From positions 11,241 through 75,240 of the forward strand of contig DASXPG010000106.1 of assembly GCA_036493755.1 (NCBI GenBank): DNA of 64,000 nucleotides, in the 5' to 3' direction. This DNA comes from Gemmatimonadales bacterium. Lineage in GTDB: Bacteria; Gemmatimonadota; Gemmatimonadetes; Gemmatimonadales; JACORV01. Both the position numbers and the translations under genes were made by a program. The notes under the pieces were generated by a model. The model saw nothing but the letters and a program-made list of their open reading frames with translations, made no database searches and had not been told where the DNA came from. Position 1 is the first letter of the stretch; every line of letters starts with the position of its first letter. Positions 1,001-58,840 of this stretch are shown here, piece by piece.

Positions 1001-3429
1001 TCGTAGCGCAGCGCGACCATCGGATCGATTTTCGCCGCGCGCCGCGCCGGGAACCACGCCGCCGCCGCCGCGACCACCACGAGGACCGAGGCGACGCCGA
1101 CGAAGACCAGCGGATCAGCGGGCCCGACGCCATAGAGCAGCGACTTGAGCGCGCGCGCCATCGCGTACGCTCCCGCCGCACCGACCACCACACCGGCGAT
1201 GGTCGCGCGCAGTCCCTGAGCCAGGATCATCCGCGCCACCCGCCGGGTCTCGGCACCGAGCGCCATGCGGATGCCGATCTCCTGCGTCCGCTGGCTCACC
1301 GAGTAAGCGATGACGGCGAAGATGCCGGTCGCGGAAATGATGAGCGCCAGGATGCCGAAGGCCGAGAAGGCCTCGGCGCCGAGGCGCCACGACCGGAGCT
1401 GGGGGGAGATCTGCTGCTCCAGGGTCTGCACACTGGCGAAGGGCAGATTGCCGCGGGCCTGGACTTCGCGCCGGATGGCATCGGCGATGTCGGTTCCCTT
1501 GGTCCGGGCGCGGACCATCAGCGCGCTGATGTGCAGGTTCTTGACCTGCGCGATCGGCTGGTAGAACGAGACCGACGAGTCGGTGACGCTTCCCCGCTTC
1601 TGATCGGCGACGATGCCCACGATCTGCGTACAGGTCGTGACGGTATCGGCGCCGAGGTACAGGCACTTGCCGAGGGCGCTGCGGCCCGGCCAGAAGTGCG
1701 AGGCCATGCTCGCTTCGATCACCGCGACCTGCTGCGCGCCGCTGACGTCGGCGTCGGTGAAATCGCGCCCCGCCGCGAGGCGGGTTCCCATTGTTCCGAA
1801 ATAGCCGGGGGTGACCCCCGTGAAGTAGGCACCACCGCGCCAATGCACCGTGGCGGTGTCCACGTCCTGGGCATGAAAGCCGAACTTGTAGCCCCAGTTG
1901 AACGGCGTCCCCATCGAGGCGGCGGCGTGTTCGACCCCGGGGAGCTGCCGCACCCGGTCGAGCAGCGACAGGTAGGTGCTGTTGACCTCGCTCGGCGAGA
2001 CGCCGGCGGCGTCGAGGTTCACGGACACCTCGAGCACCTTGGGTGCATCGAAGCCGAGGTCGAGCGACTCCACGTTGCGCAGGCTTCGTACGAAGAGTCC
2101 CGCGCCGACGAGGAGCACCAGCGTGAGCGCCACCTGGGCGATCACCAGCGCCGCCCGAACCCGCGCGCCCTTGTAGGTCGTGTGGTTCCCGCTCTTGAGC
2201 GCCTCGGCAAGGTCGGTGGAGCTGGAGCTGATCGCGGGCAGCATCCCGGTCAGCAGCGTCGTTACCAGGACCGCGAGGGCGGTGAAGACCAGCACGCGGC
2301 CGTCGACCAGCGAGGTGCCGGCGGGGAGATCGGGAATGAGCAGGGAGCGAACCAGTGCGCCGCCCCACGCCGCGAGGAGCAATGCCGCGGCGCCGCCTAA
2401 CGATGCGAGCACCAGGCTTTCCGACAGCAGCAGGCTGGCGAGACCGCCGCGTCCGGCGCCCAGGCCGGCCCGTACCGCCAGCTCGCGGCGGCGGCCGGCG
2501 CCCCGCGCCAGCAGCAGGTTGGCGACATTGGCGCAGGCAATCAGCAGGACCAGCAGCGAGACGCCGCCGATCCACATCGACACCCTCGAGGTGTCGGAGA
2601 GCTCCGGGCTGCGTGCCGCCTCGATGGGCCCGAGAACCACCGTCGCGAGGGTGTCCTGCCCTTTCGCGCCGCGCTCACCGCGCTGCAGCGTCAGGGTCGC
2701 CAGCGCCGCGGCCTGGTCGTCGCGCATCCCCGGCTTGAGCCGGGCGATCGCCTCCATCCACCACCAGGAACGGCTGGTCAGCGCTTCCGTGTTGGCGATT
2801 TCCCCGGCCGAGACTTCGATCGGGAGCCAGAGATCCACCGGCGCCAGCTCGATCCCGCTGAAGCTCCTGGGACCGATGCCGATAACGGTATAGGTCCCCT
2901 TGCCGATCTGGAGCGCGCGCCCGAGAACGGCCGTATCACCCGCGAACCTTCTCTGCCAGAAGCCATAGCTGAGCACGGCGACCCGCTCGCCGGCCGGCGT
3001 GTCTTCGGCGGCGGTGAAAAAGCGGCCTCGCGCGGGCGAAACACCCAGGAGGGGGAAGTAGTCGTGGGAAACCGCGCCGACGTGAATCTGCTCGGCCTGC
3101 GCGCCGCGGCCCAGGCTCAGGTCCCGCTGGGTGGCGGCCGCGGTCCGGTCGAAGACGCCCGAGCCCCGAAGATCGACGAAAGCGGGATACTTGCCGATGC
3201 CGCCGGTGTTGATGTCGTTGCCGAACTTGCGGCGCACATAGATCCGCACCACCCGGTCGGGCTGGGCGACGCCGGCCGGCGGCTTGAGGAAGAGCGTATC
3301 GACGACGCCGAACATCGCGGCGTTGACGCCCATCCCCAGCGCCAGCGTGAGAACGATGCCGAAAGTGAAGCCCGGCGTGCGCGCCAGGGTACGCAGGGCG
3401 TACCTGAGGTCGCGGAGCAGCTTTCCCAT
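997..3429 (-). CDS. ADOP/MacB-like ABC transporter permease (duplicated FtsX-type, 810 aa)
   Basis: Starts [34 protein letters not shown]. Has two FtsX-like blocks ([31 protein letters not shown] and [14 protein letters not shown]) and ends ALRYE. Its stop overlaps the next gene's start (ATGA at 997-1000). Confidence 0.9.
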
Positions 3430-3467
3430 CGCTTACTCCTTCACTGCTACCGAGAGACGGGCTGTGG

Positions 3468-4175
<708 letters not shown>

Positions 4176-4203
4176 TGGACTCCCCTTTGAGTTGTCTTGA
4201 AGC

Positions 4204-4255
4204 GTTGGCTGGCAGCTGGCAGTTGGCGGCTGGCGGCAAACTGCCAGCGGCCAAC
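4204..4255 (-). promoter_or_regulatory. Intercistronic stem-loop between the adaptor and ATPase genes
   Basis: gttggc/gccaac (4204-4209 with 4250-4255) and gctggcagtt/aactgccagc (4215-4224 with 4239-4248) are perfect complements around a 14-nt loop. Confidence 0.4.
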
Positions 4256-4268
4256 CGACAGCGGCCAC

Positions 4269-5522
4269 TCACTTGATTCTGACCCGATCCACGTTGTCCC
4301 ACCGCGTCATGTCCGACAGGATGATCTCGTCGCCCACCTTGAGTCCGCCGACCACTTCGATGTCGTTCACCGACGCGCGGCCGAAGCGGACGTTCACCCG
4401 GTTCCCGTATTTCCCGCCGTCCGAGGTCTTGAAGACCCCCGAGCTGCTGTTGGGCTGGCCGTAGGCGGGGCGCGGCACCGACAGCACGTCGGTCAGCCGC
4501 TCGATCTCGATGGTGCCTTCGATCTGGAGATCGGGACGCGCGCCCTGGGGCAGCGGCCCCTCCAATGAGACATCCACGGTGACCGTTCCGTTGGTCGCAC
4601 CGGGATCCATGCGGATCACGTGGCCCGGAACATGGCCCACGCGCGTATCGATGTCGGCGCTCTGGCCCAGCGCGACGTCGCGGGCCTGGGTCTCAGGAAT
4701 CTTCAGCTCGGCCTTGAGCCGGCCCGGCTGGAGTACCTGCGCCATCTCCGTCCCCGACTGCACCCATTGGCCCGGCTGGAGCGTGAGATCCTGCACCACG
4801 CCGTCGACACCGGCGTTGACGTGCAGTGACTGCACCCGCTGCCGGTTGTACTCGGCGACGTCGCGCAGCCGCGCGATCTGATCGCGCTGCAGGCTCAACT
4901 GGCTGTCCACCGTGCTCGTCATCAGATCGAGCCGATCCTGCTCGATATGCAGCCGCTCGGTCAGCTCGGTGACGAGGTCACGCGCCTTGGCCAGATCGTT
5001 CGCGGCAATGAGGTTGCGCTGCGCCAGCGTCTCTCCGGATGACGACTGCCGTTGCGCCTCGCGCAGCTGGTTGCGCATGTCGGCCACCACGCCCTGCTGG
5101 TTGAGGCGTCCGGTGACCAGCTGGGTCCGAAGGCTGACGAGCTGCGCCTGCGCGGCCGAGAGCTGCTGCTGCGCGGTGAGCGCCTGCAGCTCGACGTCGG
5201 GGTTGCTCATCTCGAGGAGAATGGTGTTGGCGTGAACCGTCGCACCGGGCCGGACCATCACCTGGTCGACACGTCCGCCGGTGACGGCGGAGATGTAACG
5301 GATCTGTTCGGGCCGCAGCTGGCCGGGGCCGTGTACTTCGCGCAGCATCGGGCCGCGCTTCACGACGCCGAACCAGAGTCCGGCACGTTCCACCGTCGGC
5401 GCCGCGGGCTTGAGACCACTCAGTAGAATGGTGACCGCTACCAGGGTCAGCACGCCGGCACCGATGGCGACGTAACGGCCGGTCTTTTTCTTGGGTGCAC
5501 GCTTGATATCCACGACTTCCAT
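4269..5522 (-). CDS. HlyD/MacA-family periplasmic adaptor (membrane fusion protein)
   Basis: N-terminal single TM (YVAIGAGVLTLVAVTILL), a long coiled-coil segment, then beta-barrel-like C-terminus. Sits upstream of the ABC ATPase and permeases on the same strand. Confidence 0.85.
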   Translation of the reverse strand: MEVVDIKRAPKKKTGRYVAIGAGVLTLVAVTILLSGLKPAAPTVERAGLWFGVVKRGPMLREVHGPGQLRPEQIRYISAVTGGRVDQVMVRPGATVHANTILLEMSNPDVELQALTAQQQLSAAQAQLVSLRTQLVTGRLNQQGVVADMRNQLREAQRQSSSGETLAQRNLIAANDLAKARDLVTELTERLHIEQDRLDLMTSTVDSQLSLQRDQIARLRDVAEYNRQRVQSLHVNAGVDGVVQDLTLQPGQWVQSGTEMAQVLQPGRLKAELKIPETQARDVALGQSADIDTRVGHVPGHVIRMDPGATNGTVTVDVSLEGPLPQGARPDLQIEGTIEIERLTDVLSVPRPAYGQPNSSSGVFKTSDGGKYGNRVNVRFGRASVNDIEVVGGLKVGDEIILSDMTRWDNVDRVRIK

Positions 5523-5597: not shown

Positions 5598-7370
5598 ATG
5601 TTCCTGACCGGACGCGGGATAACCCGTCCCACAACCGGACGACCAATCTCTGACCCCTTACTTTGTACCGTGCCGGATTTCAACGAGTTGTTCGGAGATC
5701 TCTTCGAGCTGGAAGCCTTGGTCGCCGAGTCGGACGATCGCGCGCTCTACATGGTGAGCGAGCGTCTGCTGAAGCGGCGGGTGGCGCTGCGCGTCCAGAA
5801 AAAGGCTGGACCCGGGCTCGACTGGTTCCTGCGCGAAACCGAAGTCCTCGCCGGTCTCGACCATCCCTCGATCCGCCACGTCTACAGCGCCGGAGTGCGC
5901 GGCGGCTCGGCGTACCGGGTCGGCAACTGGATCGCGGGCGAAAGCCTGGCCGACGCCGTGGTGCGCGGACCGCGCCCGATACCGCTGCTGCTCTCCCTCG
6001 CGCGCGATCTCCTCTACGCCCTCGACTATGCGCATGTGCGGGGCATCGTGATGCGCCGGGTGCGTCCGACGACGTTGATGCTCGATGCCAGCGCGCGCGC
6101 CGTCATCACCGATCTGCGTTTCGCCAGCACCGTGCTCGACGCCGTTCCCGAAGAATTGCGCAGCGACGACGACGTCTTCCTCGCCCCCGAAGTGCGGGAT
6201 GGGTCGCGCGGCACCCCGAGCGCCGACATCTGGGCCATCGGCGCGGTACTCTATTTCACCGCGACCGGCCTGCAGCCGGGAAGCAGCATCCTGCCGATCA
6301 GAGAGCTGCGCGCCGATTTCCCGCCCAACATCGATGCCTGGCTGATGCGCGCCCTCGAAACCAAGCCGCGCGATCGATTCTTCACCGCCGCGGAAATGCT
6401 CGCCGAGCTGGCGAACTTCACCGATCCATGGACCGAGCCGGCCAGTGCCGGGCCGGTTACCATCATGCCCGATTCTCCGGGCTGGGAGCGGCGGCTACGC
6501 CGCGCGCTGGGCGACGATTATGCGCTGGAGTCTGAGGTCGGCCAGGGGAGCTTTGGGCGGGTCTACAGGGTGCGCGACCTGCGCCTGGAGCGCCAGGTGG
6601 CGATGAAGGTCCTCGATCCGCGCCTGACCCAGGATCCGGCCATCGCCGAAGGCTTCGTGCGCGAGGCCCAGCTCGCCGCCAGCCTGGAGCATCCCAACAT
6701 CGTCAGCATCTACGACATCGACGGCCGGCTGGGCCTGCTCTGGTACACGATGGAGCTGATCCGCGGCGAGAATGTGGCGCAGATGGTGGACAAGCGTGGC
6801 CGGATGTCGCCGGCCGCGGCGGTGGCCATCGTGGACGACACCTTGAGCGCGCTCGAATACGCGCACCAGCGCCGCGTCGTCCACCGGGACATCAAGCCGG
6901 AAAACCTTCTGGTGGACAAGGAAGGCCGCATCCATGTCACCGACTTCGGCCTCGCCCTGGCGCTGCCCCGGGGCCGCATCTTCGGCGGCGCCACCAGCCG
7001 CAGCGGCACGCCGCAGTTTGCCGCCCCCGAGCAGCTCGCCGGCGGCCAGGTGGACCAGCGCACCGACCTCTTCTCGTTAGGCGCCGTCGGCTACTACCTG
7101 CTGCTGGGCCGGCCTCCCTTCCCCGAACGCGGGCCCGAAAACGCCTGGCGCGGCGACGTCGGCTTCAGCCTGCCCAACATCGCGGCCGAACGCGACGACG
7201 TTTCCCCTCCCCTGGAGCTGGCGCTGCGCAAGGCTTGCAGCTTCCAGCCCGGCGATCGCTTCCCCAGCGGCGCGACCTTCCGAGAGGCCCTGGAGATGGC
7301 GGGATACGTCACCGGCGAACGACGACTTCCGGAACCCACGCTGCTGGAGCGATTCAGAAAGCTTTTCTGA
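5598..7370 (+). CDS. Ser/Thr protein kinase with an N-terminal degenerate (pseudo)kinase domain and a C-terminal canonical kinase domain
   Basis: Second half has GQGSFGRVY, VAMK, HRDIKPENLL, DFGLA and APE. First half has the same fold-length spacing but VALRV, MRRVRPTTLML and DLRFA at those positions. The start codon is uncertain (ATG 5598 or GTG near 5669). Confidence 0.85.
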   Translation: MFLTGRGITRPTTGRPISDPLLCTVPDFNELFGDLFELEALVAESDDRALYMVSERLLKRRVALRVQKKAGPGLDWFLRETEVLAGLDHPSIRHVYSAGVRGGSAYRVGNWIAGESLADAVVRGPRPIPLLLSLARDLLYALDYAHVRGIVMRRVRPTTLMLDASARAVITDLRFASTVLDAVPEELRSDDDVFLAPEVRDGSRGTPSADIWAIGAVLYFTATGLQPGSSILPIRELRADFPPNIDAWLMRALETKPRDRFFTAAEMLAELANFTDPWTEPASAGPVTIMPDSPGWERRLRRALGDDYALESEVGQGSFGRVYRVRDLRLERQVAMKVLDPRLTQDPAIAEGFVREAQLAASLEHPNIVSIYDIDGRLGLLWYTMELIRGENVAQMVDKRGRMSPAAAVAIVDDTLSALEYAHQRRVVHRDIKPENLLVDKEGRIHVTDFGLALALPRGRIFGGATSRSGTPQFAAPEQLAGGQVDQRTDLFSLGAVGYYLLLGRPPFPERGPENAWRGDVGFSLPNIAAERDDVSPPLELALRKACSFQPGDRFPSGATFREALEMAGYVTGERRLPEPTLLERFRKLF

Positions 7371-7381
7371 AGCAGCTAAAA

Positions 7382-7425
7382 ACAGATTGAGACAGATTGA
7401 GACAGATTGAGACAGATTGAGACAG
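7382..7425 (+). repeat. Perfect 10-bp tandem repeat (acagattgag) x4.4
   Basis: Read directly: acagattgag acagattgag acagattgag acagattgag acag. Confidence 0.95.
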
Positions 7426-7432
7426 TAAACAA

Positions 7433-7457
7433 AACCCCACGGAGTCGTCGTGGGGTT
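7433..7457. terminator. Candidate bidirectional terminator hairpin between convergent genes
   Basis: aaccccacg (7433-7441) pairs with cgtggggtt (7449-7457) around a 7-nt loop. On the minus strand it is followed by TTTTGTTTACTG. It lies between the kinase stop (7370) and the minus-strand ORF stop (7502). Confidence 0.5.
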
Positions 7458-7501
7458 TGCTGTCTGCTGCCTCAATCTGTCCCAATCTGTCCTTTGACTG
7501 C

Positions 7502-7732
7502 CTATCGAAGCGACCGCCCTCCGGAGCGCCGATCGTTCACCTGCCGGCGCTCGCCGCCGGAGCGCCGCTCATCGATACCGCGTCGATCGAGCCCGGACCG
7601 GCGATCGGTGGAGACCCACATATTCTGCTCCCGCCGCTCATCGGCGCGCCGATCTGCCTCCCGGCGCTCGGACTCTCTGCGACCCGAGTAGAACCTGCGA
7701 TCGGAGTCCTGCGAACCTGTTTCAACTACCAC
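7502..7732 (-). CDS. Small arginine-rich repeat protein (76 aa) with about nine [DE]RR motifs; no family recognised
   Basis: GTG at 7732 is preceded by GGGAGG 8 nt upstream. Product: VVVETGSQDSDRRFYSGRRESERREADRRADERREQNMWVSTDRRSGLDRRGIDERRSGGERRQVNDRRSGGRSLR. The repeats are also visible at DNA level (cgccgctcatcg x2). Confidence 0.45.
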   Translation of the reverse strand: MVVETGSQDSDRRFYSGRRESERREADRRADERREQNMWVSTDRRSGLDRRGIDERRSGGERRQVNDRRSGGRSLR

Positions 7733-7771
7733 GATTCTGACCTCCCGGGTGGTTCGCGATAAAACGACCGG

Positions 7772-7827
7772 AAAAAAGGCGGCGGTATGATTGCGAGTCT
7801 GACCCCAACCCGCAAGAGCAGTGCCGC
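7772..7827 (-). terminator. Candidate intrinsic terminator after copD
   Basis: On the minus strand, nested stems (gcggc/gccgc and ttgcg/cgcaa) are followed by CTTTTTTCC (A-run 7772-7777 on the plus strand). The structure begins at the copD stop codon. Confidence 0.4.
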
Positions 7828-8777
7828 TATTCGGACCCCGGCTCGGGTGTAACGACAAGCACCGCCGTGACTAGCAGCACCATCACCCCCAGAATGACCT
7901 CCAGCCGGATACTTCGGTGAATCGGCGCCGTTTCGCCGCTTTTGACCAGGGCTGGCCCCAGTTTGCGCCAGTTGACCGCTCCGGTCGCTGTCATGACACC
8001 AACCGCTACCAGCTTGACCACCAAGGTCAGGCCGTAGCGGCTCTGCCACAGTGCTGCCAGGCTGCCGAGGTGAAGCCACGACGCCACAATGCCGCTCAGA
8101 AGGACGAGGGAGGCGCTGGTGAGGGCCAAGGGCGAATAGGCCACTACGATCGCCGCGGCCAGAATGCCGGGCGATACCGAGGCCGGAGGATCCGATTCCC
8201 GGCTGAATCCCTTGTGCACCAGCATCAGCGACCGAAGCAACAGGATCATCGACCCCAGCCAGGCGCTCGCGCCGACCACGTGGACGATGTCGCTGGCGAC
8301 CGCCAGGACCGTGAGCCGCTCGCTTCCCAGTGCATGTCCGCTCAGCGAGAGCGTCGCCGCGAGCGGCACCGCGATCAGCGCGGCGAGCAGCCAGCCGCGC
8401 CGGCCCCTCGCCGCGGCGGTATACGCCAGGGCGGCGCTGAACATCAGCAGCACCTGGCATCCCCATACCAGGCCCCACTCGGTGTGCAGGCCAAGCGCGG
8501 TGAGCTGAGGGAAGATCGGCGAGGCATTGTCGTACAGCTCGGAGAACTGGAGCGGCAGTCGGCTGACGGATGCGAGAAGGCCGAGGCAGGCGCCCATCGT
8601 CGCGAGGCGCGCGGTGTGAATCTCCAGCGCGTCTCCGCGCCCGGAAACCGCGGTCGCCTGGCGCACCGACGCGCGGCGGAGAACCAGGAATCGAAACGCC
8701 GCCGCGCCCACGACTACGAGCACAGCGGCGAAAAGCGCCCATCGATCGACCAGGCCCGCCGGCGCGAGCGGGTTCAT
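7827..8777 (-). CDS. copD: CopD-family copper resistance membrane protein
   Basis: Polytopic membrane protein starting MNPLAPAGLVDRWALFAAVLVVVGAAAFRF. It has the SGHA and HVVGASAWLG histidine motifs typical of CopD. Start chosen at 8777, 8 nt after the copC stop. Confidence 0.85.
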   Translation of the reverse strand: MNPLAPAGLVDRWALFAAVLVVVGAAAFRFLVLRRASVRQATAVSGRGDALEIHTARLATMGACLGLLASVSRLPLQFSELYDNASPIFPQLTALGLHTEWGLVWGCQVLLMFSAALAYTAAARGRRGWLLAALIAVPLAATLSLSGHALGSERLTVLAVASDIVHVVGASAWLGSMILLLRSLMLVHKGFSRESDPPASVSPGILAAAIVVAYSPLALTSASLVLLSGIVASWLHLGSLAALWQSRYGLTLVVKLVAVGVMTATGAVNWRKLGPALVKSGETAPIHRSIRLEVILGVMVLLVTAVLVVTPEPGSE

Positions 8778-8784
8778 GCCACGG

Positions 8785-9207
8785 TCAGTGCGACGCGGCC
8801 GGCGCCACCGTGAAGGCGAAGTGGCCGCTGGAGACATGACCGTCCCGCGGCATCGCTCGCCAGGTAACGGTGTAACGTCCCGCGCCAAGGTGGCCTTGAA
8901 CATCGACGGCGACCGGCGAGTTGGCCGCAGCCGCCGCATACGGCTTGCCGGTCGCGACCGCATGGCCGGCGGCATCGCTGAGCCGGACCGTGCTGACGGC
9001 CAGCTGCAGGGGTTCGGTGAACCACAGCCGGATCGCCGTCGGCGCGACCTTCACGGTACTGTCGGCTCCGGGCTCGGAACGCACGAGATGAGTGTGTTTG
9101 AAAGCAAAGGCAGATAGCGACAGGTACAAACAGATCGATACAGCAAACAGGCCGAGGTTTGCTGTCTGAATCTGTCTCAACCTGTTCTTAGCTGTTGTCG
9201 TTTTCAT
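8785..9207 (-). CDS. copC: CopC-family periplasmic copper-binding protein
   Basis: Signal peptide MKTTTAKNRLRQIQTANLGLFAVSICLYLSLSAFAFK, then a mature N-terminus HTHLVRSEPGADSTV. The fold pattern is CopC/YobA-like (RLWFTEP, YTVTWRAMPRDGHVSSG). Followed directly by copD. Confidence 0.8.
   Translation of the reverse strand: MKTTTAKNRLRQIQTANLGLFAVSICLYLSLSAFAFKHTHLVRSEPGADSTVKVAPTAIRLWFTEPLQLAVSTVRLSDAAGHAVATGKPYAAAAANSPVAVDVQGHLGAGRYTVTWRAMPRDGHVSSGHFAFTVAPAASH
9126..9194. repeat. Composite palindromic repeat element, copy B (inside the copC 5' coding region)
   Basis: The reverse complement of 9162-9194 (cagctaagaacaggttgagacagattcagacag) matches 7373-7405 at 30 of 33 positions. The arms acaaacagatcgatacagcaaac and gtttgctgtctgaatctgtctc pair around the loop aggccgag. 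Confidence 0.65.
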
Positions 9208-9211
9208 AAGG

Positions 9212-9283
9212 AGCCACCGGTCGGAATTGAACCGACGACCGCTCGATTACGAATCGAGAGCTCTACCCCTGAGCTACGGTGGC
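9212..9283 (-). tRNA. tRNA-Thr (anticodon CGU)
   Basis: GCCACCG TA GCTC AGGGGTA GAGC T CTCGA TTCGTAA TCGAG CGGTC GTCGG TTCAATT CCGAC CGGTGGC T folds as a full cloverleaf. CCA is not encoded. Confidence 0.9.
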
Positions 9284-9406
9284 GGGTGCCCTGAAGCGCA
9301 CGGCCCAAAGCTAGCGGCCCGGTTTACGATCCGGTACTCCGCCGTCAGATAACGACTGGCTGACCAATTCAGCGTTTTGTGGGTACCACAGTCAGGAGGC
9401 GTTGCT

Positions 9407-9697
9407 ATGCCAAAGATCGGACTCGGTGGGGACGTTCATGCCCGTTTTGCCATTCTCGCCGGACTGGTGCGTCATGAGTACTGGCTGCATGGCGAAACGC
9501 CTGAAGATTTCGATTTCAAGGCGGACCCGGATACCATGACACTCAGCGCACTCAAGCACGACGGCACCCGGTGTGTGTTTACCATCGATGAAGCGCGCCT
9601 TCTGGTCAGTGACCTCCATTCGCTGGCGGTGGACTTCTACAAAGCACACTGCGAGGGAACCAGCCGGTTTTCACGCTCGGCGCGCCGGCCCGCCTAG
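9407..9697 (+). CDS. Hypothetical protein (96 aa)
   Basis: AGGAGG lies 7 nt upstream of ATG 9407. Product starts MPKIGLGGDVHARFAILAGLVRHEYWLHGETPEDFDFKADPD. No recognisable motif. It sits in a visibly less GC-rich stretch between two tRNAs. Confidence 0.45.
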   Translation: MPKIGLGGDVHARFAILAGLVRHEYWLHGETPEDFDFKADPDTMTLSALKHDGTRCVFTIDEARLLVSDLHSLAVDFYKAHCEGTSRFSRSARRPA

Positions 9698-9809
9698 ATG
9701 CTCGACGGCCTCCAGCTTGGCTTTGCCGCGCCGGAGGCCGCCGACATCAGGTGAGGGATCGCACTCTCGTGCCGTTGCTCGAGACATTTGTTCGGGCCTG
9801 ACTGCTGGA

Positions 9810-9891
9810 TGCCCTGGCTCGGATTCGAACCGAGACGCCTTTCGGCACCACCCCCTCAAGATGGCGTGTCTACCAGTTTCACCACCAGGGC
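9810..9891 (-). tRNA. tRNA-Leu (anticodon GAG), long variable arm
   Basis: GCCCTGG TG GTGAAACTGGTAGACAC G CCATC TTGAGGG GGTGG TGCCGAAAGGCGT CTCGG TTCGAAT CCGAG CCAGGGC A. Confidence 0.9.
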
Positions 9892-9906
9892 ATGGGGCCC
9901 GGAAAA

Positions 9907-10518
9907 TTAGGCGGTCTGGAAGTTTTTCTCCACCTCATCCCAGTTCACCACATTCCACCACGCGGCGACATAGTCGGGACGCTTGTTCTGGTACTTGAGG
10001 TAGTAGGCATGCTCCCAGACGTCGAGTCCGAGGATCGCCTTCTTCCCTTCCATCGCCGGATTGTCCTGGTTCGGCGTGTTGGTGATCGCGAGTTTCGCCC
10101 CGTCCTTCACCAGCCAGACCCAGCCCGACCCGAAACGACCCGCGGCCGCGGCGGCCCACTGCTCCTTGAATTTGTCGAAGGAAGTGAACGAGCTGTCGAT
10201 CGCCTGGGCCACGTTCCCCTTGGGGGCGCCGCCCCCGCCTTTCTTCATCAGCGTCCAGAAGGCGCTGTGATTCCAGTGTCCGCCGCCGTTGTTACGGACG
10301 GCGCCGCGGATGGCTTCGGGCACGGCATTGAGATCGGCGAGGATTTCGGTGAGGCCCTTCTTCTGCAGTGCGGGCGCCTTTTCGAGCGCCTCGTTGAGCT
10401 TGGTGACGTAGGTGCCGTGGTGCTTGTCGTGATGAATGGTCATCGTCTGCGCATCGATGTGCGGCTCGAGGGCGGCGGCATCGTACGGCAGCGGTGGGAG
10501 CGTGAAAGGGTACGGCAT
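9907..10518 (-). CDS. sodA: Superoxide dismutase, Fe/Mn family (Mn-type residues)
   Basis: [34 protein letters not shown], then [18 protein letters not shown] and [21 protein letters not shown]. The GGH and Q-in-NQDNP pattern resembles MnSOD rather than FeSOD. Confidence 0.95.
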
Positions 10519-12307: not shown

Positions 12308-14740
12308 ATGCGCAACTTCGTCACCGACCTCCGCTACGGCCTTCGGATGCTGCTCAAGCATCCCGGACTCGCGACCATCTCGGTCACCGCCCTGGCGCTG
12401 GGCATCGGGCTCACGGCCATGATGTGGAGCATCGTCTACGGCGCGCTCATGCGCGACATGCCTTTCGAGCGCGGCCAGGACCTGGTGTACGTGCGGCGCT
12501 ACCGGCCGGATCGCGGGCCCAACAACAACATGTCCATGCCGGTCCACGACTACGAGGCGTACCGCGCGGGCCAGCACGCTTTCGAGGACATGGCCTCGTG
12601 GTACGAGGGCACGGTCAACGTGAGCGGCATCGAAGGGCGTCCCGAACGATTTACCGGCGGCTTCATCACTCCGTCGGCCTTCCGCCTTCTGCGGCTGCCC
12701 CCGCGGCTCGGCCGCGCCTTCACCGACGACGACAACAAGGCCGGCGCGCCCAATGTGGCGATGATTTCCTGGGACCTGTGGCAGGAACGCTTCGGCGGCG
12801 ACAGCGCGATCATCGGCAAGACGCTGCGCGCCAACGGCATCTCCGAAGAAATCGTGGGCGTCATGCCGCGCGGTTTCCTGTTCCCCAACGCCTCGAAGCT
12901 GTGGCTCCCGCTGCGCATGAACGCGACGACCCAGCAGCCGTGGGCGTCGGGCACGTGGCTGGAATCGATGGGGCGCCTCAAACCCGGCGCCACGATAGCC
13001 CAGGTGCGCGCCGAGCTGGGGATCGTGGCGGCGCGGCTGGCGCAGGAGCATCCCAAAGAGAACACGGGTATCGCGCCGCTGGTCCAGACACCGAACCAGT
13101 ACCTGGTGCCCGAGGGACCGCGGACCATGCTGTGGACCATGCTGGGCGCGGTCTTCGGCGTGCTGCTGCTGGCCTGCTCCAACGTCGCCAATCTGCTGTT
13201 GGCGCGGGCGGCCATGCGCAGCAAGGAAGTCGCCATCCGCACGGCGCTGGGCGCGAGCCGCGCGCGGGTGATCGGGCAACTGCTCACCGAAGCGCTGGTG
13301 ATCTCCCTCATCGGCTCGGTGATCGGCATCGGCATTGCGGCGGTGGGGGTTCGCTGGTTCAACCACGCACTGCTCCAGACCCAGCTTCCTTTCTGGGTGA
13401 AAATCACGGTTGATCCTCCGATCCTGCTCTTCGTGCTCCTGGTCAGCGTGCTGGCCGCGGTGATCAGCGGCGTGGTACCGGCGCTCCAGGCGACCAACGC
13501 AAAAATCCACGACGTCCTCAAGGACGAGGGTCGCGGGAGCTCCAGCCTGCGGCTGGGCCGGTTCAGCAAGGGGCTGGTAGTGCTGGAGCTCGCGCTCGCG
13601 GGCGGATTGCTGGTGGCGGCGGGATTCATGATCCAGAGCGTCATCCAGCGATCGCACTTCGACTACGGTGTGAGAACGTCGAATGTGCTCACCGCCCGCG
13701 CCGGTTTGTTCGAAACGACCTACCCCGACTCGGCCAGCCACGCGAAGTTCTGGCGCGATCTCGAAGTGCGCATGCAGCAGCTGCCGGCCAACAACGGCGC
13801 CGCGCTGATGACCGCTCTTCCGGGACTCTTCGGCGGCAACGGCGGCACCTTTGCCGTCGAAGGCAAGACCTACGCCACCGACCGCGATTACCCCGAGACC
13901 CGTTCGGTCGCGGTCTCACCATCGTACTTCGCGCTGTTCAAGCTTCAATCAGTGGAAGGCCGGCTGCTGACGGAGAACGACAACGGCGCCACCGCGCAGG
14001 TCGCGGTGGTAACGCGCGGTTTCGCGCTCAAACACTTCCCGGGACAGTCGCCCCTCGGCAAGCGGCTGCGTTTCGGGGACGCCGAATCCACGCAGCCCTG
14101 GCTGACGATCGTGGGCGTGATTCCGGACGTCTGGTACGACGGGACCAACGACACGCCGGCCCGGACGGTCGTGCTGACGTCCATTTACCAGGGCGACTAT
14201 CGGTTCCTGTCGATCGCGATCGGCGCGCCGAGCAATCCGACGGGATTCACCGGCCCGCTTCAGATGGCGGTGCTCGGCGTGGATCGCGACCAGCCGGTCT
14301 ACTTCGTCCGCACCCTCGATGAAGCCATCGCCGCCAACGGCTGGTTCTACACGGTATTCGGCGACCTTTTCGCGAGCTTCGGCGCCGCCGCGCTGTTCCT
14401 CGCGATGATCGGGGTCTATGGCGTGATGTCGTTCGCGGTAACGCGCCGGACGCCGGAGATCGGCGTCCGCATGGCGCTGGGCGCCGGCACGAAGGACGTG
14501 CTGCGGCTCTTCCTGCAGCAGGGCACGATCCAGATCGCCATTGGCCTGCTGCTCGGCGCGGCATTGGCCTTCGGCATTTCGCGCGGCCTGACGTCCGTTC
14601 TCTTCCAGGTGGACATCAACAACGGGCTGATGTACGGGGGCGTTTCGGCGGCGCTGGCGCTGAGCGGCTTCGTCGCGATCCTCATTCCGTCATTGCGCGC
14701 GACCCGCGTAGACCCGCTGAGCGCGCTGAGATACGACTAG
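12308..14740 (+). CDS. ADOP/MacB-like ABC transporter permease (810 aa)
   Basis: Starts MRNFVTDLRYGLRMLLKHPGLATISVTALALGIG. Has [33 protein letters not shown] and RRTPEIGVRMALGA, and ends LSALRYD. No adjacent ATPase gene. Confidence 0.9.
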   Translation: MRNFVTDLRYGLRMLLKHPGLATISVTALALGIGLTAMMWSIVYGALMRDMPFERGQDLVYVRRYRPDRGPNNNMSMPVHDYEAYRAGQHAFEDMASWYEGTVNVSGIEGRPERFTGGFITPSAFRLLRLPPRLGRAFTDDDNKAGAPNVAMISWDLWQERFGGDSAIIGKTLRANGISEEIVGVMPRGFLFPNASKLWLPLRMNATTQQPWASGTWLESMGRLKPGATIAQVRAELGIVAARLAQEHPKENTGIAPLVQTPNQYLVPEGPRTMLWTMLGAVFGVLLLACSNVANLLLARAAMRSKEVAIRTALGASRARVIGQLLTEALVISLIGSVIGIGIAAVGVRWFNHALLQTQLPFWVKITVDPPILLFVLLVSVLAAVISGVVPALQATNAKIHDVLKDEGRGSSSLRLGRFSKGLVVLELALAGGLLVAAGFMIQSVIQRSHFDYGVRTSNVLTARAGLFETTYPDSASHAKFWRDLEVRMQQLPANNGAALMTALPGLFGGNGGTFAVEGKTYATDRDYPETRSVAVSPSYFALFKLQSVEGRLLTENDNGATAQVAVVTRGFALKHFPGQSPLGKRLRFGDAESTQPWLTIVGVIPDVWYDGTNDTPARTVVLTSIYQGDYRFLSIAIGAPSNPTGFTGPLQMAVLGVDRDQPVYFVRTLDEAIAANGWFYTVFGDLFASFGAAALFLAMIGVYGVMSFAVTRRTPEIGVRMALGAGTKDVLRLFLQQGTIQIAIGLLLGAALAFGISRGLTSVLFQVDINNGLMYGGVSAALALSGFVAILIPSLRATRVDPLSALRYD

Positions 14741-14804
14741 AGGAGAGAGGAGCGGGAAGAGCGCTGACTGCGCGCATCGCTCCTCTTTCCCCTCTCCTCT
14801 CTCC
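14741..14804. terminator. Purine-rich/pyrimidine-rich imperfect hairpin between convergent genes
   Basis: aggagagaggagcgggaagagcg (14741-14763) pairs imperfectly with cgctcctctttcccctctcctctctc (14779-14804). It fills the whole gap between two stop codons. Confidence 0.4.
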
Positions 14805-15191
14805 CTACCCAGTCAGTCTCACCCACTGTTCCGGCGTCGCGGGAATCACCGATAGCCGCGGCTGCCTGACGAGGGGCGAGTCCCCGAACTCGTCCATGCC
14901 GCGAATCTCGGCCAGCGTCACCGGCGCGAGTTTCCGGCCGGCTTTCAGATCCACCACGGTGAGCTTGCTGTCCTTGGGATCGGCGTACGGCGCCGAGACA
15001 ACGGTCGCGGTGCCGACAACAGCCTTCTCGGCGCCGGTGTGGTAGATGGCGACCTGGTCGTCCTTCGTCATCGCCTTGATGTTGCGCAGCGCCACCGGAT
15101 TGGTGACGCCGTCCCAGCGCGCCGTGCCCGCGCGCACCAAATCGTCAAACGAGTAGGTCGACGGCTCGGTCTTCAGCACCCAGTGCGCCAT
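14805..15191 (-). CDS. EVE domain-containing protein
   Basis: Starts MAHWVLKTEPSTYSFDDLVRAGTARWDGVTNPVALRNIKAMTKDDQVAIYHTG, typical of the EVE/PUA-like family. ATG 15191 is preceded by GGAGGGAGGG. Confidence 0.8.
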   Translation of the reverse strand: MAHWVLKTEPSTYSFDDLVRAGTARWDGVTNPVALRNIKAMTKDDQVAIYHTGAEKAVVGTATVVSAPYADPKDSKLTVVDLKAGRKLAPVTLAEIRGMDEFGDSPLVRQPRLSVIPATPEQWVRLTG

Positions 15192-15243
15192 ATCCGCCCT
15201 CCCTCCGATATCATTCACGCACGATACCGAGGAAAGCGAAACG

Positions 15244-23632: not shown

Positions 23633-25321
23633 TCACCACGGGGCGACGTCGAGCATCACCCGTTCCAGCGCCGCCGCCGTGGTCAGCAGGATCAGCTTGT
23701 CGCCCGCCTGCATCCGCACGTCGGGCCGCGGCGCTATCATCCGTTCATCCCGCATTATCGCCAGGATCTCGATCTCGTCGTCGATCTTGCCGCGCTCCGG
23801 ACCGAAGCCACGCCCGACCCAGGCGCTCGTTTCGCGCAACGACCCGACCAGCAACTGCCGATCGTTGGACAACTCGGTCGGGACCCCGGCGCGCAGCCGT
23901 TCGAGCAACGCTTCCCCGGCGGGCTCGAGCGGCCGGACCTGGCGCTGCTGCTCGAGAATGCGCAGCGCGATCTCGAGATGCTCGGTGTGGTGCGCGGGAG
24001 AATCAGCCCGCCGCGGCACCTGCTCCTGGTAGAGGCTCTTGTAACGCAGATGCTGCGAGAGGCGGACCTGCACGATGTAGCTGATCGTCACCGCCAGCGC
24101 GGCGGCGACCAGGAGGGTATACCCCCCGGTCATTTCCGTGACCATCATCAGCGTGGCCATCGGGACCCGCGCGGCACCGGCGAATACCGCGGCCATGCCC
24201 ACGATCGCAAAGGGCGCTGCCGTCTTGTGGATCACCTGGGCGAAAAACGCCCCGAGCATGGTGCCGATGTACAGACTGGGAGCGAACACGCCCCCGGAGC
24301 CCCCCGAAGAAATCGTCAGGCTCATCGCGATGGTCTTGGCGAATACCAGCAACAACAGCGTCAGCGTGAGAAGCTGCCCGTCGATGGCGCGCTGCATCCA
24401 GCCGTATCCACCGCCGATCACCGGCGGCAGTGCCAGCGCGATGACACCGGTCAGCAGGGCACCGATCGCCGGCTTGACGGCCGGCGGAATCCGGAGCTTG
24501 TGGAAGAGATCGCGGGTGTAGTAGAAGGCCAGCGGCAGCAGCACCGCGACCAGTCCGGAGGCCAGGCCGAGGGCCGTGAACCAGACGTAGTCGATGCTCT
24601 CGGGATTGTTGATCGCCGGAATGACGAACAGCGGCCGGAAGCCGGTGAAGACGCCGTTGACAGCATAGGCGACCACCGAAGCCAGCATGGTGTACAGCAG
24701 CGCGCCGCTCTCGAACTCCATGTCGGCGTAGAGAACCTCGATCGAAAACAGCGCCGTCCCGATGGGCGAGCGGAAAATCGCCGCGAGGCCGGCCGACATG
24801 CCGATGAGCAGCAGCAGCCGCCGATCCTCTGGACTGCGGTGCGTGATGCCCGCGTACCACGAGCCGATACCGGCGGCAACCAGCGCCGTCGGACCCTCGC
24901 GGCCCGCCGAGCCACCGGAGCCGATGGTGAGTCCCGACGCCAGCATCTTGAGCGGCGGCACGCGCGCCCGCAGCGCGCCGTCCGCCCGGTGGAAGGCCCG
25001 CACCGCCGTATCGGTACCGTGGCCCTCCGCCTCGGGCGCCAGCCAGGTGATGAGGAGACCGCAGAAGAGGCCACCGACCGCGGCGACCACCGGCACGAGC
25101 CACAGCCCGAACCGGCCGATGACCTCCTGCGGCGAGCCTCCCTCGTTGACGAGGCCCGGCGGCTGGTAGCCCGCCAGCCTGCCCAGGAAAAGCGACTGAG
25201 CCACATTCAGAACCAGCGTGAAGAGCTGGGCCGACGCCGCGCCGCCGATACCGAGGAGGAGGGAATCCAGCAGCAGGCGCCGCTGCCGCCGGGCCACCGA
25301 TTCAACGGGGGCCGCGGTCAC
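23633..25321 (-). CDS. ClC-family chloride channel/antiporter with C-terminal TrkA-C (RCK_C)-like domain
   Basis: GREGPTALVAAGIGSW, GGSGGVFAPSLYIG and GYTLLV selectivity-filter-like motifs. The C-terminal tail reads ILAIMRDERMIAPRPDVRMQAGDKLILL. Its GTG start overlaps the ligD stop. Confidence 0.9.
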   Translation of the reverse strand: MTAAPVESVARRQRRLLLDSLLLGIGGAASAQLFTLVLNVAQSLFLGRLAGYQPPGLVNEGGSPQEVIGRFGLWLVPVVAAVGGLFCGLLITWLAPEAEGHGTDTAVRAFHRADGALRARVPPLKMLASGLTIGSGGSAGREGPTALVAAGIGSWYAGITHRSPEDRRLLLLIGMSAGLAAIFRSPIGTALFSIEVLYADMEFESGALLYTMLASVVAYAVNGVFTGFRPLFVIPAINNPESIDYVWFTALGLASGLVAVLLPLAFYYTRDLFHKLRIPPAVKPAIGALLTGVIALALPPVIGGGYGWMQRAIDGQLLTLTLLLLVFAKTIAMSLTISSGGSGGVFAPSLYIGTMLGAFFAQVIHKTAAPFAIVGMAAVFAGAARVPMATLMMVTEMTGGYTLLVAAALAVTISYIVQVRLSQHLRYKSLYQEQVPRRADSPAHHTEHLEIALRILEQQRQVRPLEPAGEALLERLRAGVPTELSNDRQLLVGSLRETSAWVGRGFGPERGKIDDEIEILAIMRDERMIAPRPDVRMQAGDKLILLTTAAALERVMLDVAPW

Positions 25322-36200: not shown

Positions 36201-36269
36201 CGAGGTGAAAAAACCGCGGCGCGACCTCGAGGAAACTCGAAGCCGCGCCGGGGGTTACAGAATGATGAA

Positions 36270-58768: not shown

Positions 58769-58840
58769 GAACGGGGAACGAGGAACGGGGAACGAGGAAG
58801 CCAAACCCTTCCCCCTTCCCCGTTCCCCGTTCCCCGTTCT
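58768..58840. terminator. Long hairpin built from GGGGAAC-type heptamer repeats between convergent genes
   Basis: gaacggggaacgaggaacggggaacgagg pairs with cccccttccccgttccccgttccccgttc (26 of 29 positions) around an ~11-nt loop. It fills the entire gap between two stop codons. Confidence 0.6.

What the first reader, a model, noticed from the sequence alone, without database searches (positions are those of the whole stretch)
7373..9194. Two copies of a composite palindromic repeat (10-bp tandem units plus central hairpin) bracket a 1.8-kb copC-copD cassette next to tRNA-Thr
Copy A (7373-7492) is cagctaaaaa, (acagattgag) x4.4, gacagtaaac, a GC hairpin, gtttgctgtc, then reverse-complement units. 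The reverse complement of 9162-9194 (cagctaagaacaggttgagacagattcagacag) matches 7373-7405 at 30 of 33 positions. Copy B (9126-9194) has the same arm / cagcaaac-loop-gtttgctg / arm design. The copies are in inverted orientation. They enclose the Arg-rich ORF, copD and copC, and the outer edge of copy B is 18 nt from tRNA-Thr, a classic integration hotspot. This could be a genome-wide REP/MITE-like family, the termini of a small mobilised metal-resistance cassette, or regulator binding arrays. No transposase or integrase is present.
Basis: seen in the sequence. Interest (0 to 1): 0.55.

Follow-up and report, generated by a model that had tools for sequence, protein, structure and literature searches.

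The report
Hairpin repeats flanking copCD, one coding
The two look-alike palindromes around the copper genes are real, but they are not the ends of a mobile cassette: one is a lineage-specific, stem-extended terminator between convergent genes, and the other is an old hairpin repeat that encodes the start and signal peptide of CopC directly behind a tRNA gene.

Summary
Copy A (7373-7492) and copy B (9099-9206) are long hairpin-forming palindromes built from 10-nt GACAG-N5 units. They are homologous over their full length in inverted orientation (30/33 in the outer arm, blastn E 1.7e-6).

The 'mobilised cassette' reading fails. The order SOD, tRNA-Leu/Thr, copC, copD, Arg-rich ORF, convergent kinase is conserved where sequence is available in eight Gemmatimonadales loci. 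Copy A is missing from the closest relative that has sequence there, and there is no target-site duplication.

Copy B is not intergenic. It forms codons 1-35 of copC (start codon 3 nt after tRNA-Thr). Its purine-rich arm encodes the polar n-region of the signal peptide and the complementary arm encodes the hydrophobic core. The same design occurs in L001 and L122, with paired changes that keep the stem and anomalously low GC3.

Copy A is a canonical terminator hairpin with copy-B-type arms added around it. The same unit type follows an unrelated gene in another contig (L144). Orthologous sites in other lineages carry palindromes built from different 7-9-nt units.

Conclusion: these are members of an apparently undescribed, fast-evolving class of tandem-unit hairpin elements at gene boundaries. 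Their function (termination or attenuation) is inferred, not shown.

The parts
7373..7492 (.). Copy A: composite palindrome that fills almost the whole gap between the stop codons of the convergent kinase gene (stop 7368-7370) and the Arg-rich ORF (stop 7502-7504)
   Evidence: (z -8.9)
7382..7425 (+). Copy A left arm: (ACAGATTGAG) x4.4, perfect tandem array
   Evidence: (100% matches)
7432..7458 (-). Copy A core: canonical intrinsic-terminator hairpin (10-bp stem, 6 GC pairs, then TTTTGTTT on the minus strand), terminating the Arg-rich ORF; the A-tract on the other side gives a weaker U-tract for the kinase transcript
   Evidence: terminator-like site 7458..7432; similar plain terminator at the same site in L123
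7461..7491 (+). Copy A right arm: reverse-complement units (CTGCCTCAAT CTGTCCCAAT CTGTC)
9099..9206 (-). Copy B: imperfect palindrome of GACAG-N5 units lying inside copC codons 1-36; on the minus strand the 5' arm is 9206-9157, the loop 9156-9149 and the 3' arm 9148-9099
   Evidence: (z -4.8)
8785..9207 (-). copC (140 aa). Residues 1-35 (nt 9207-9103) are the signal peptide MKTTTAKNRLRQIQTANLGLFAVSICLYLSLSAFA; the CopC domain covers residues 38-134. The public annotation starts at V42 and lacks a signal peptide
   Evidence: (PF04234, E 8e-23)
9210..9283 (-). tRNA-Thr(CGT); its 3' end is 3 nt from the copC ATG
   Evidence: same junction in L001, L122, L123
7827..8783 (-). copD
   Evidence: PF05425; P0003, 100% identity, 316 aa
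7502..7732 (-). Small Arg-rich ORF (about 76 aa from the GTG at 7732, preceded by GGGAGG); conserved motif SDRRFYSGRRE..RRAQNMWV.TDRRSGLDRR
   Evidence: no Pfam family
5598..7370 (+). Ser/Thr protein kinase gene, convergent with the Arg-rich ORF
   Evidence: syntenic in L123-L128
58767..58839 (.). Another member of the architectural class: palindrome of 7-nt units (GGAACGR / CGTTCCC) filling the gap between convergent ORFs 58163-58768(+) and 58840-61539(-)
   Evidence: -71.4 kcal/mol
14742..14804 (.). Another class member: GGAGAGA/CTCCTCT-type palindrome filling the gap between convergent ORFs 12308-14740(+) and 14805-15218(-)
4204..4267 (.). Another class member: palindrome of GGCTGGC-type 7-mers directly 3' of ORF 4269-5522(-)

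Best explanation
The two copies are paralogous members of a small family inside a broader, lineage-variable class of hairpin-forming 'tandem-unit palindromes' that sit at gene boundaries in Gemmatimonadales. They are not the ends of a mobile element.

Copy B is the older copy. It lies directly behind tRNA-Thr, where this genome otherwise places a tRNA terminator, and it has been taken into the copC reading frame. It supplies the start codon and the whole signal peptide: the purine-rich arm (AGA, CAG, ACA, AAG codons) gives the basic, polar n-region, and the complementary arm (CTG, TCT, ATC, TGT, TTT codons) gives the hydrophobic core. The transcript can still fold into an A/U-rich hairpin followed by a U-rich stretch.

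Inferred function of copy B: tRNA-Thr and copCD are made as one transcript, and the hairpin acts as a leaky terminator or attenuator (and possibly a 5' stabiliser or translation throttle) that uncouples strong tRNA transcription from low copCD expression.

Copy A is recent and lineage-specific. It is a full-length copy of the copy-B palindrome in inverted orientation, with two extra units, wrapped around an ordinary GC-rich terminator hairpin between the convergent kinase and Arg-rich genes. This extends the terminator stem from 10 bp to about 45 bp.

Inferred origin: copying by replication template switching or ectopic conversion between nearby inverted repeats, plus unit slippage. This is the kind of process that can create and homogenise hairpins.

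Shown here: anatomy, homology, coding status of B, conservation and absence pattern, and terminator-like core. Inferred: co-transcription, termination or attenuation, and the copying mechanism.
For: - Homology of A and B over the whole length, including both outer ends (CAGCTAARAACAG ... ATCTGYCCTTTG), with a 16-22-nt GC hairpin inserted at the loop of A. A shares the state CAGCTAA with this genome's B, whereas L001 and L122 have CAGAAAA and CAGATAA, so the copying is recent and within this lineage.
- Copy B is coding. The ORF 8785-9207 has a CopC domain at residues 38-134. Residues 1-37 align with the signal peptides of other CopCs, and the N-terminal sequence type recurs in P0002, L122, L123 and P0064, with indels in multiples of three. 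No conserved alternative start exists downstream.
- The same tRNA-Thr / start codon / GACAG-palindrome layout is found in L001 and L122, with hairpin z-scores of -6.7 and -7.3.
- On four orthologs the stem is 92% paired (25-42% when partners are slid), and 6 pairs changed on both sides (0 of 500 shuffles reach this).
- GC3 of the signal-peptide codons is 0.42-0.54 against 0.81-0.85 in the rest of the gene; outgroups show 0.81-0.86 against 0.90-0.92. This indicates a nucleotide-level constraint.
- tRNA-Lys in the same window is followed 14 nt later by a canonical hairpin plus T6 terminator, so copy B occupies a terminator position. A T-rich tract follows the hairpin in all four orthologs.
- The core of copy A is flagged as terminator-like, and L123 and L125 have plain terminators at that site.
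- Copy A is an insertion of about 130 nt relative to L122 and L127.
- Class evidence: window 4204, 14742 and 58767; L013; L127; L164; L167; L144.
- A template-switching origin of hairpins is documented in PMC8794818.
Against: - No transcript data exist: co-transcription, termination and attenuation are inferences from position and sequence.
- The U-tract after copy B is weak (CCUUUGCUUUC) and was not called by the simple terminator scan.
- A strong hairpin after tRNA-Thr is not universal. L125 (z -0.1), L127 (-1.8) and L123 (-1.6) are not significant, so the hairpin is a subclade feature and not a necessity of the locus.
- Covariation rests on only four sequences. Paired changes can be produced by template switching itself rather than by selection (PMC8794818).
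- L001 and L122 would start copC with GTG 1 nt after the tRNA and without a Shine-Dalgarno sequence, so how translation starts is unknown.
- One class member (L127 4303-4432) lies in a divergent promoter region, so the class is not purely terminator-associated.
Confidence: 0.55

Rival explanations
1. One-off local duplication: copy A arose once by an inverted duplication or template switch from the copC 5' palindrome 1.7 kb away. There is no dispersed family, and no function beyond lengthening an existing terminator stem.
For: Only two copies of the motif occur in 64 kb. A shares lineage-specific bases with this genome's B. A is absent in relatives. Template switching between inverted repeats is a known mutational route (PMC8794818, PMC5941160).
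Against: L144 carries the same unit and the same inner junction (GACAGCAAC) after the stop codon of an unrelated, conserved gene. That argues for more than one copying event in this lineage or a close one. This rival overlaps with the best explanation on mechanism and differs mainly on family size.
Confidence: 0.2
2. Protein-binding arrays: the 10-bp-phased GACAG units are binding sites on one face of the DNA helix for a regulator (for example an OmpR/PhoB-type response regulator, or the adjacent Arg-rich protein) that brackets and controls the copCD / Arg-rich region.
For: The 10-bp period equals the DNA helical repeat. The AT-rich GACAG units of copy B are kept in three lineages despite strong GC pressure. 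Both arrays flank the same 1.8-kb region.
Against: The same unit follows an unrelated gene in L144, while that orthologous site carries GACGGCT or GGGGATT palindromes, or nothing, in other lineages. Copy A is absent in relatives with the same genes. Other palindromes in the window have quite different units. No further GACAG arrays occur elsewhere in the window (one 3-mismatch hit outside the two copies, 2.35 hits expected overall). The arrays lie in a coding region and at a terminator, not at promoters.
Confidence: 0.12
3. Terminal inverted repeats of a small mobile or mobilised copCD metal-resistance cassette integrated next to tRNA-Thr.
For: The two copies are in inverted orientation with their matching 'CAGCTAA' ends facing outward. 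They lie next to a tRNA gene.
Against: The SOD, tRNA-Leu, tRNA-Thr, copC, copD, Arg-rich ORF, kinase and efflux gene order is conserved where sequence is available in eight loci from different lineages, down to 43% CopD identity. Copy B is part of the copC coding sequence and is conserved in relatives. Copy A is missing in L122 and L126-L128 with the cassette intact. There are no target-site duplications and no transposase or integrase nearby. GC content of copCD equals that of the genome.
Confidence: 0.03

Closest known systems
REP / BIME elements (repetitive extragenic palindromes) of Proteobacteria
   Same: Imperfect palindromes that fold as hairpins, sit mostly just after stop codons and between convergent genes, and act as 3'-end or terminator-like elements (bioRxiv 10.64898/2026.03.23.713779). 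They vary in presence between related genomes.
   Different: REPs are 20-40 nt, are not built from tandem sub-units, occur as hundreds of near-identical copies, and are tied to RAYT transposases. Here the elements are 60-130 nt, their arms are arrays of 7-10-nt units, each locus mostly has its own unit, only 2-3 copies of the GACAG type are known, and one copy is coding.
Intrinsic (bidirectional) transcription terminators between convergent genes
   Same: The core of copy A is a GC stem flanked by an A-tract and a T-tract. Relatives have plain versions at the same site. Position and fold fit a terminator.
   Different: The stem is extended to about 45 bp by AT-rich 10-nt repeat units that are homologous to a coding-region palindrome 1.7 kb away.
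Rickettsia palindromic elements (RPE), palindromic repeats inserted in-frame in protein-coding genes (reviewed in PMC10969869)
   Same: A palindromic repeat that is part of an open reading frame and is translated, with related copies elsewhere that are non-coding.
   Different: RPEs insert into the body of proteins at many loci. Here a single copy provides the start codon and the whole signal peptide, exploiting the polar/hydrophobic complementarity of its two arms. Insertion (as opposed to in-situ growth) is not demonstrated.
Cyanobacterial STRR (short tandemly repeated repetitive) heptamer arrays (from my own knowledge; mentioned in PMC5088731)
   Same: Intergenic arrays of 7-nt units such as CCCCAAT-like repeats. 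L166/L167 carry GGGGATT / AACCCCC units.
   Different: Different phylum. STRRs are defined as dispersed families of a few fixed heptamers, not as paired inverted arrays whose unit differs from site to site.
tRNA-mRNA co-transcription units such as E. coli thrU-tyrU-glyT-thrT-tufB (from my own knowledge)
   Same: A protein gene lies immediately downstream of a tRNA gene, with no room for its own promoter.
   Different: Here the ORF begins 1-3 nt after the tRNA and starts with a long hairpin. Co-transcription is inferred only.

Membership tests
Composite transposon / mobilised cassette with terminal inverted repeats | The segment between the repeats is present or absent as a unit among related genomes, or sits in different contexts | tested here: not met
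   The same gene order around copCD is seen where sequence is available in eight loci. The repeats vary while the genes stay.
Composite transposon / mobilised cassette with terminal inverted repeats | Target-site duplication flanking the repeats | tested here: not met
   Comparison with the empty sites in L122 and L127 shows no direct repeat at the edges of copy A. The outer edge of copy B is copC coding sequence abutting the tRNA.
Composite transposon / mobilised cassette with terminal inverted repeats | Transposase or integrase within or next to the element | tested here: not met
   ORFs between and beside the copies are copC, copD, the Arg-rich ORF, a kinase and a 106-aa ORF with no Pfam hit. 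The rest of the window was not scanned protein by protein.
REP (repetitive extragenic palindrome) | Short (about 20-40 nt) imperfect palindrome, extragenic | tested here: not met
   The copies are 108-120 nt long with arms made of tandem units. Copy B is intragenic.
REP (repetitive extragenic palindrome) | Tens to hundreds of near-identical copies per genome | tested here: inconclusive
   Two copies in 64 kb, both at this locus, and one more context in a metagenome contig (L144).
REP (repetitive extragenic palindrome) | Association with a RAYT (IS200/IS605-like) transposase | not tested
   No systematic protein scan of the window, and no access to the rest of the genome.
MITE | Terminal inverted repeats plus target-site duplication, with multiple dispersed copies | tested here: not met
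   No TSD. Dispersal is limited to three known contexts.
Intrinsic terminator | GC-rich stem-loop followed by a U-tract at the end of a transcription unit | tested here: met
   Copy A core: 10-bp stem with 6 GC pairs and tail TGTTTACTGT on the minus strand, directly after the Arg-rich ORF. For copy B, a long A/U-rich hairpin plus CCTTTGCTTTC is only suggestive.
Intrinsic terminator | Transcripts actually end there | not testable with these tools
   No RNA data for this uncultured lineage.
RPE-like in-frame palindromic element | The palindrome lies in-frame in an ORF that stays intact and conserved | tested here: met
   The frame is kept in the window, L001, L122, L123 and P0064, with indels of 3 or 6 nt. 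The region aligns with the signal peptides of other CopCs.
RPE-like in-frame palindromic element | Derived by insertion of a dispersed repeat (an empty site exists in relatives) | tested here: inconclusive
   Outgroups L125-L127 have an SD plus an ordinary GC-rich signal peptide instead. This is compatible with replacement by an element, but also with in-situ evolution.
CopC (PF04234) periplasmic copper-binding protein | CopC domain preceded by a signal peptide | tested here: met
   PF04234 at residues 38-134, E 8e-23. The N-terminus has a basic n-region, a hydrophobic core and AFA, aligned to the signal peptides of homologs.

The most novel reading that the evidence does not exclude
Gemmatimonadales carry an undescribed, rapidly turning-over class of palindromes whose arms are tandem arrays of 7-10-nt units. 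They are generated or expanded in place at gene boundaries, with different units at the same orthologous site in different lineages. One ancient member, lodged behind tRNA-Thr, has been exapted to encode the start codon and complete signal peptide of CopC: its polar arm encodes the n-region and its complementary arm the hydrophobic core. It still works as an RNA hairpin that gates read-through from the tRNA gene. That would be a dual-use sequence showing how a palindrome can give birth to a secretion signal.
Probability: 0.35. Interest if true: 0.65.

Novelty: new variant of a known kind. Interest (0 to 1): 0.45.

Why it matters
For annotation:
- The public gene model of this copC is truncated (it has no signal peptide).
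- The 'intergenic repeat' next to the tRNA is actually coding.
- The locus is not a mobile metal-resistance cassette.

For biology:
- It shows a concrete case where one palindrome serves as both an RNA/DNA hairpin and a signal-peptide coding sequence. This illustrates how sense/antisense hydropathy complementarity can yield a basic-then-hydrophobic leader.
- It points to a class of tandem-unit hairpin elements in a poorly studied phylum. Their turnover at orthologous sites could be a tractable system for studying how terminator-like hairpins are born and extended, through template switching plus slippage.

Tried and rejected
- **Genome-collection scan.** I used RACAG-N4-RR repeated four times. 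My chance estimate of about 2 hits was wrong. Its one useful product was L013.
- **Metagenome protein scan.** The scan with the CopC alignment found nothing because its two peptide patterns were too narrow.
- **Second metagenome scan.** ACAGNNNNAGACAGATTNAGACAG gave 34 hits. All but L144 were unrelated low-GC repeats.
- **'Every ortholog has a hairpin after tRNA-Thr'.** Rejected: L125, L127 and L123 do not fold better than shuffles.
- **Rfam.** No family apart from tRNAs; the weak mir-641 and ycf2 hits are far below the gathering scores.
- **Sigma-70 promoter scan.** Nothing found at 6800-10000.
- **Target-site duplication at copy A.** None found.
- **Homolog of the L144 gene in the window.** None, so that copy is at an unlinked locus.
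- **Pho-box or CusR-box resemblance of CTGTC units.** Considered from memory only. The period (10 versus 11 bp) and context do not fit, so I did not pursue it.
- **P0001 look-up.** Failed; the source contig was not retrieved beyond the window.
Full report
**1. The observation**

- Copy A (7373-7492) has a perfect (ACAGATTGAG)x4.4 array at 7382-7425. It is followed by a GC hairpin (AAACCCCACG-gagtcgt-CGTGGGGTTT) and then reverse-complement units at 7461-7491 (31-nt arms, 87% complementary).
- Copy B is an imperfect palindrome with 50-nt arms at 9099-9148 and 9157-9206, 70% complementary, with an 8-nt loop.
- The outer arm of A (7373-7405) and the outer arm of B (9162-9194) are 30/33 complementary. 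blastn-short gives E 1.7e-6 against the window.
- The 14-mer ACAGATTGAGACAG with up to 2 mismatches occurs nine times, all within the two copies, against 0.31 expected.
- As single strands, A folds at -62.4 kcal/mol (z -8.9) and B at -38.3 kcal/mol (z -4.8).
- tRNA-Thr(CGT) is at 9210-9283 on the minus strand.

**2. Copy B is coding sequence**

The ORF 8785-9207 (minus strand) is a CopC protein, with PF04234 at residues 38-134 (E 8e-23). Its first 35 residues, MKTTTAKNRLRQIQTANLGLFAVSICLYLSLSAFA, are encoded by copy B.

- The purine-rich arm gives the basic, polar n-region. The complementary arm gives the hydrophobic core and the AFA motif. This follows directly from A-in-second-position codons being complementary to T-in-second-position codons.
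- The public annotation (P0001, 99 aa) starts at V42 and has no signal peptide.
- Gene callers on relatives give 138-142-aa proteins with the same N-terminal type: P0002/L001 MNTKTEKDRLRQIKTA..ICLYLSQSAFGFFKHTHL, plus L122, L123 and P0064.
- An exhaustive search of 1.84 billion representatives shows that all other CopCs have ordinary signal peptides aligned to our residues ~15-37. The special N-terminus is confined to a small subclade.
- Indels between orthologs are 3 or 6 nt, and no alternative start is conserved downstream.

**3. The tRNA-copC junction and the palindrome are conserved in the closest relatives**

- In L001 and L122, tRNA-Thr(CGT) is followed 1 nt later by GTG and then a palindrome of GACAG-N5 units. 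L122 has 44-nt arms. Fold z-scores are -6.7 and -7.3.
- L123/L124 keep the abutting start, but the palindrome is degenerate (z -1.6).
- L125 and L126 have a 13-14-nt spacer with AAGGAG or AGGAG and a GC-rich signal peptide. L127 has a 72-nt spacer.
- On the four-sequence alignment the stem is 92% paired, against 25-42% when partners are slid. Six pairs changed on both sides (0 of 500 shuffles reach this).
- GC3 of the signal-peptide codons is 0.42-0.54 in the three palindrome-bearing genes, against 0.81-0.85 in the rest of the gene. Outgroups show 0.81-0.86 against 0.90-0.92.

So a nucleotide-level constraint, or a continuing homogenising process, acts on top of the coding constraint. One caveat applies: four sequences are few, and template switching itself can create paired changes (PMC8794818).

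**4. The cassette idea fails**

- CopD homologs led to loci from at least seven lineages. Wherever the contigs reach far enough, the order is the same: SOD, tRNA-Leu(GAG), tRNA-Thr(CGT), copC, copD, a small Arg-rich ORF, a convergent Ser/Thr kinase, then a CusB/MacB-type efflux operon. This is also the order in the window.
- GC content of copCD equals the genomic level.
- At the position of copy A:
  - L122 (CopD 69% identical) has overlapping stop codons of the Arg-rich ORF and the kinase (GGTTCTAGAACAGC).
  - L126-L128 have 8-10-nt gaps.
  - L123 and L125 have plain bidirectional terminators, for example AACAAAAGACCC-ttcac-GGGGTCTTTGTT.
- Copy A is therefore a lineage-specific addition of about 130 nt, without a target-site duplication.

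**5. What copy A is**

- Its core is a terminator-like hairpin, in the same place as the plain terminators of L123 and L125.
- Around it lie arms that align over their full length with copy B, read on the opposite strand, and with the B copies of L122 and L001. Both outer ends match (CAGCTAARAACAG ... ATCTGYCCTTTG). A has two extra units and a 16-22-nt GC insertion at the loop.
- A shares CAGCTAA with this genome's B, where L001 and L122 have CAGAAAA and CAGATAA. So A and B are related by recent copying or conversion within this lineage.

**6. A wider class**

The window has further palindromes made of short tandem units:

- 14742-14804 and 58767-58839 exactly fill gaps between convergent stop codons.
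- 4204-4267 abuts the 3' end of a gene.
- Each of these has its own unit.

Other Gemmatimonadales contigs show the same architecture:

- L013: GACAGTCGAA units between convergent genes.
- L127 4303-4432: 58-nt arms of GGGGACTGA units, in a divergent promoter region.

The most telling case is the site after the stop codon of one conserved 298-aa gene:

| Locus | What follows the stop codon |
|---|---|
| L144 | GACAGATTGA units with the GACAGCAAC junction, i.e. the copy A/B family |
| L164 | GACGGCT palindrome |
| L166 / L167 | GGGGATT / AACCCCC palindrome |
| L165, L168, L169 | nothing |

The architecture is therefore common: at least 10 examples in about 138 kb. It varies between lineages and is not tied to neighbouring gene function. 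The exact GACAG family is known from three contexts only.

**7. Mechanism (inferred)**

- tRNA-Lys in this window is followed 14 nt later by a canonical hairpin plus T6 terminator. Copy B sits at the equivalent place behind tRNA-Thr and is followed by a T-rich stretch in all four orthologs (CCTTTGCTTTC, TTTGGCTTTTTC, CTTTTAG, CCTTTGTCT).
- There is no room for a promoter between the tRNA and copC. A conserved upstream element precedes tRNA-Thr (GGAGTACCG ... GCTAGYTTTG).
- I therefore infer a tRNA-Thr-copCD co-transcript in which the hairpin acts as a leaky terminator or attenuator, and perhaps as a 5' stabiliser or translation throttle after tRNA processing.
- Copy A most likely strengthens bidirectional termination between the kinase and the Arg-rich gene.
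- Origin is probably by template switching or ectopic conversion plus unit slippage (PMC8794818, PMC5941160).
- None of this is shown experimentally.

**8. Comparison with known systems**

- Closest in behaviour are REP/BIME elements and bidirectional intrinsic terminators. For copy B, the closest are Rickettsia palindromic elements, which are in-frame palindromes in genes (PMC10969869).
- Membership of REP, MITE or composite transposon is not supported. Size, tandem sub-unit structure, copy number, TSD and extragenic location all fail or remain open.
- No Rfam family matches.
- No paper on such repeats in Gemmatimonadetes was found.

**9. Verdict**

- The most exciting reading, a mobile copper cassette at a tRNA hotspot, is rejected.
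- What remains is moderately interesting: a dual-use palindrome that encodes a signal peptide behind a tRNA gene, its recent paralog wrapped around a terminator, and a hint of an undescribed class of tandem-unit hairpin elements.
- Interest is 0.45. Novelty: new variant of a known kind.

Noticed in passing
window 7812-7826 (minus strand), directly after the copD stop codon: GGCAC-N5-TTGC (TAGCGGCACTGCTCTTGCGG), a sigma-54 -24/-12-type promoter motif upstream of the Arg-rich ORF. The same motif sits at the same place in L001, L122, L123, L125 and L127 (CGGCACYGCTCTTGCGG and close variants). It is degenerate in L126 and L128. This suggests the Arg-rich ORF is its own sigma-54-dependent unit and not part of a copCD operon.
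   Followed up: partly
window 7502-7732 (minus strand): A small, highly conserved Arg/Asp-rich protein of about 76 aa with repeated (D/E)RR motifs (SDRRFYSGRRE.ERRE.DRRADERR.QNMWV.TDRRSGLDRR). It has no Pfam family and is always found between copD and the kinase in this clade. Its function is unknown.
   Followed up: partly
window 58767-58839, 14742-14804, 4204-4267: Three further palindromes built from short tandem units (GGAACGR, GGAGAGA-type, GGCTGGC). Two of them exactly fill the gap between convergent stop codons.
   Followed up: partly
window 26262-26398: A very stable long inverted repeat (46-nt arms, 83% complementary, 45-nt loop; about -115 kcal/mol with flanks). It is not obviously made of tandem units and lies inside a mechanically listed 880-aa ORF (25318-27960, minus strand). 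Its context and meaning were not resolved.
   Followed up: no
window 9284-9805: tRNA-Leu(GAG) and tRNA-Thr(CGT) are 4-11 nt apart in L125-L127. In the window they are separated by 522 nt of lower-GC DNA (about 0.58) carrying an opposite-strand 106-aa ORF (9377-9697) with no Pfam hit. L124 has a MatE gene there, and L001 and L122 have two other genes. The space 5' of tRNA-Thr is a variable insertion spot.
   Followed up: partly
window 36211-36256 (minus strand): A canonical intrinsic terminator (19-bp GC-rich stem, loop TTTC, then TTTTTT) lies 14 nt downstream of tRNA-Lys(CTT). This shows that this organism uses classical hairpin-plus-U terminators after tRNA genes.
   Followed up: yes
window 8785-9207 versus public protein P0001: The deposited gene model of this copC starts at GTG (V42) and lacks the signal peptide. 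The gene is probably mis-started by 41 codons.
   Followed up: yes
L164 ~3985-4552, L165 ~3918-4988, L167 ~2612-3682 (related loci): The gene downstream of the conserved 298-aa gene is a selD-like (AIRS) gene with an in-frame TGA (GGT TGA GCC TGC AAA), presumably a selenocysteine codon. Gene callers start it after the TGA.
   Followed up: no
L127 4303-4432: A palindrome with 58-nt arms of GGGGACTGA 9-mers (about -97 kcal/mol) between the divergent kinase and efflux-operon starts. This is a class member in a promoter region rather than at gene ends.
   Followed up: no
L166 3955-4035: A long poly-G / poly-C run sits inside the GGGGATT palindrome region and is absent from the otherwise identical L167. 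It is probably an assembly artefact at the repeat.
   Followed up: no
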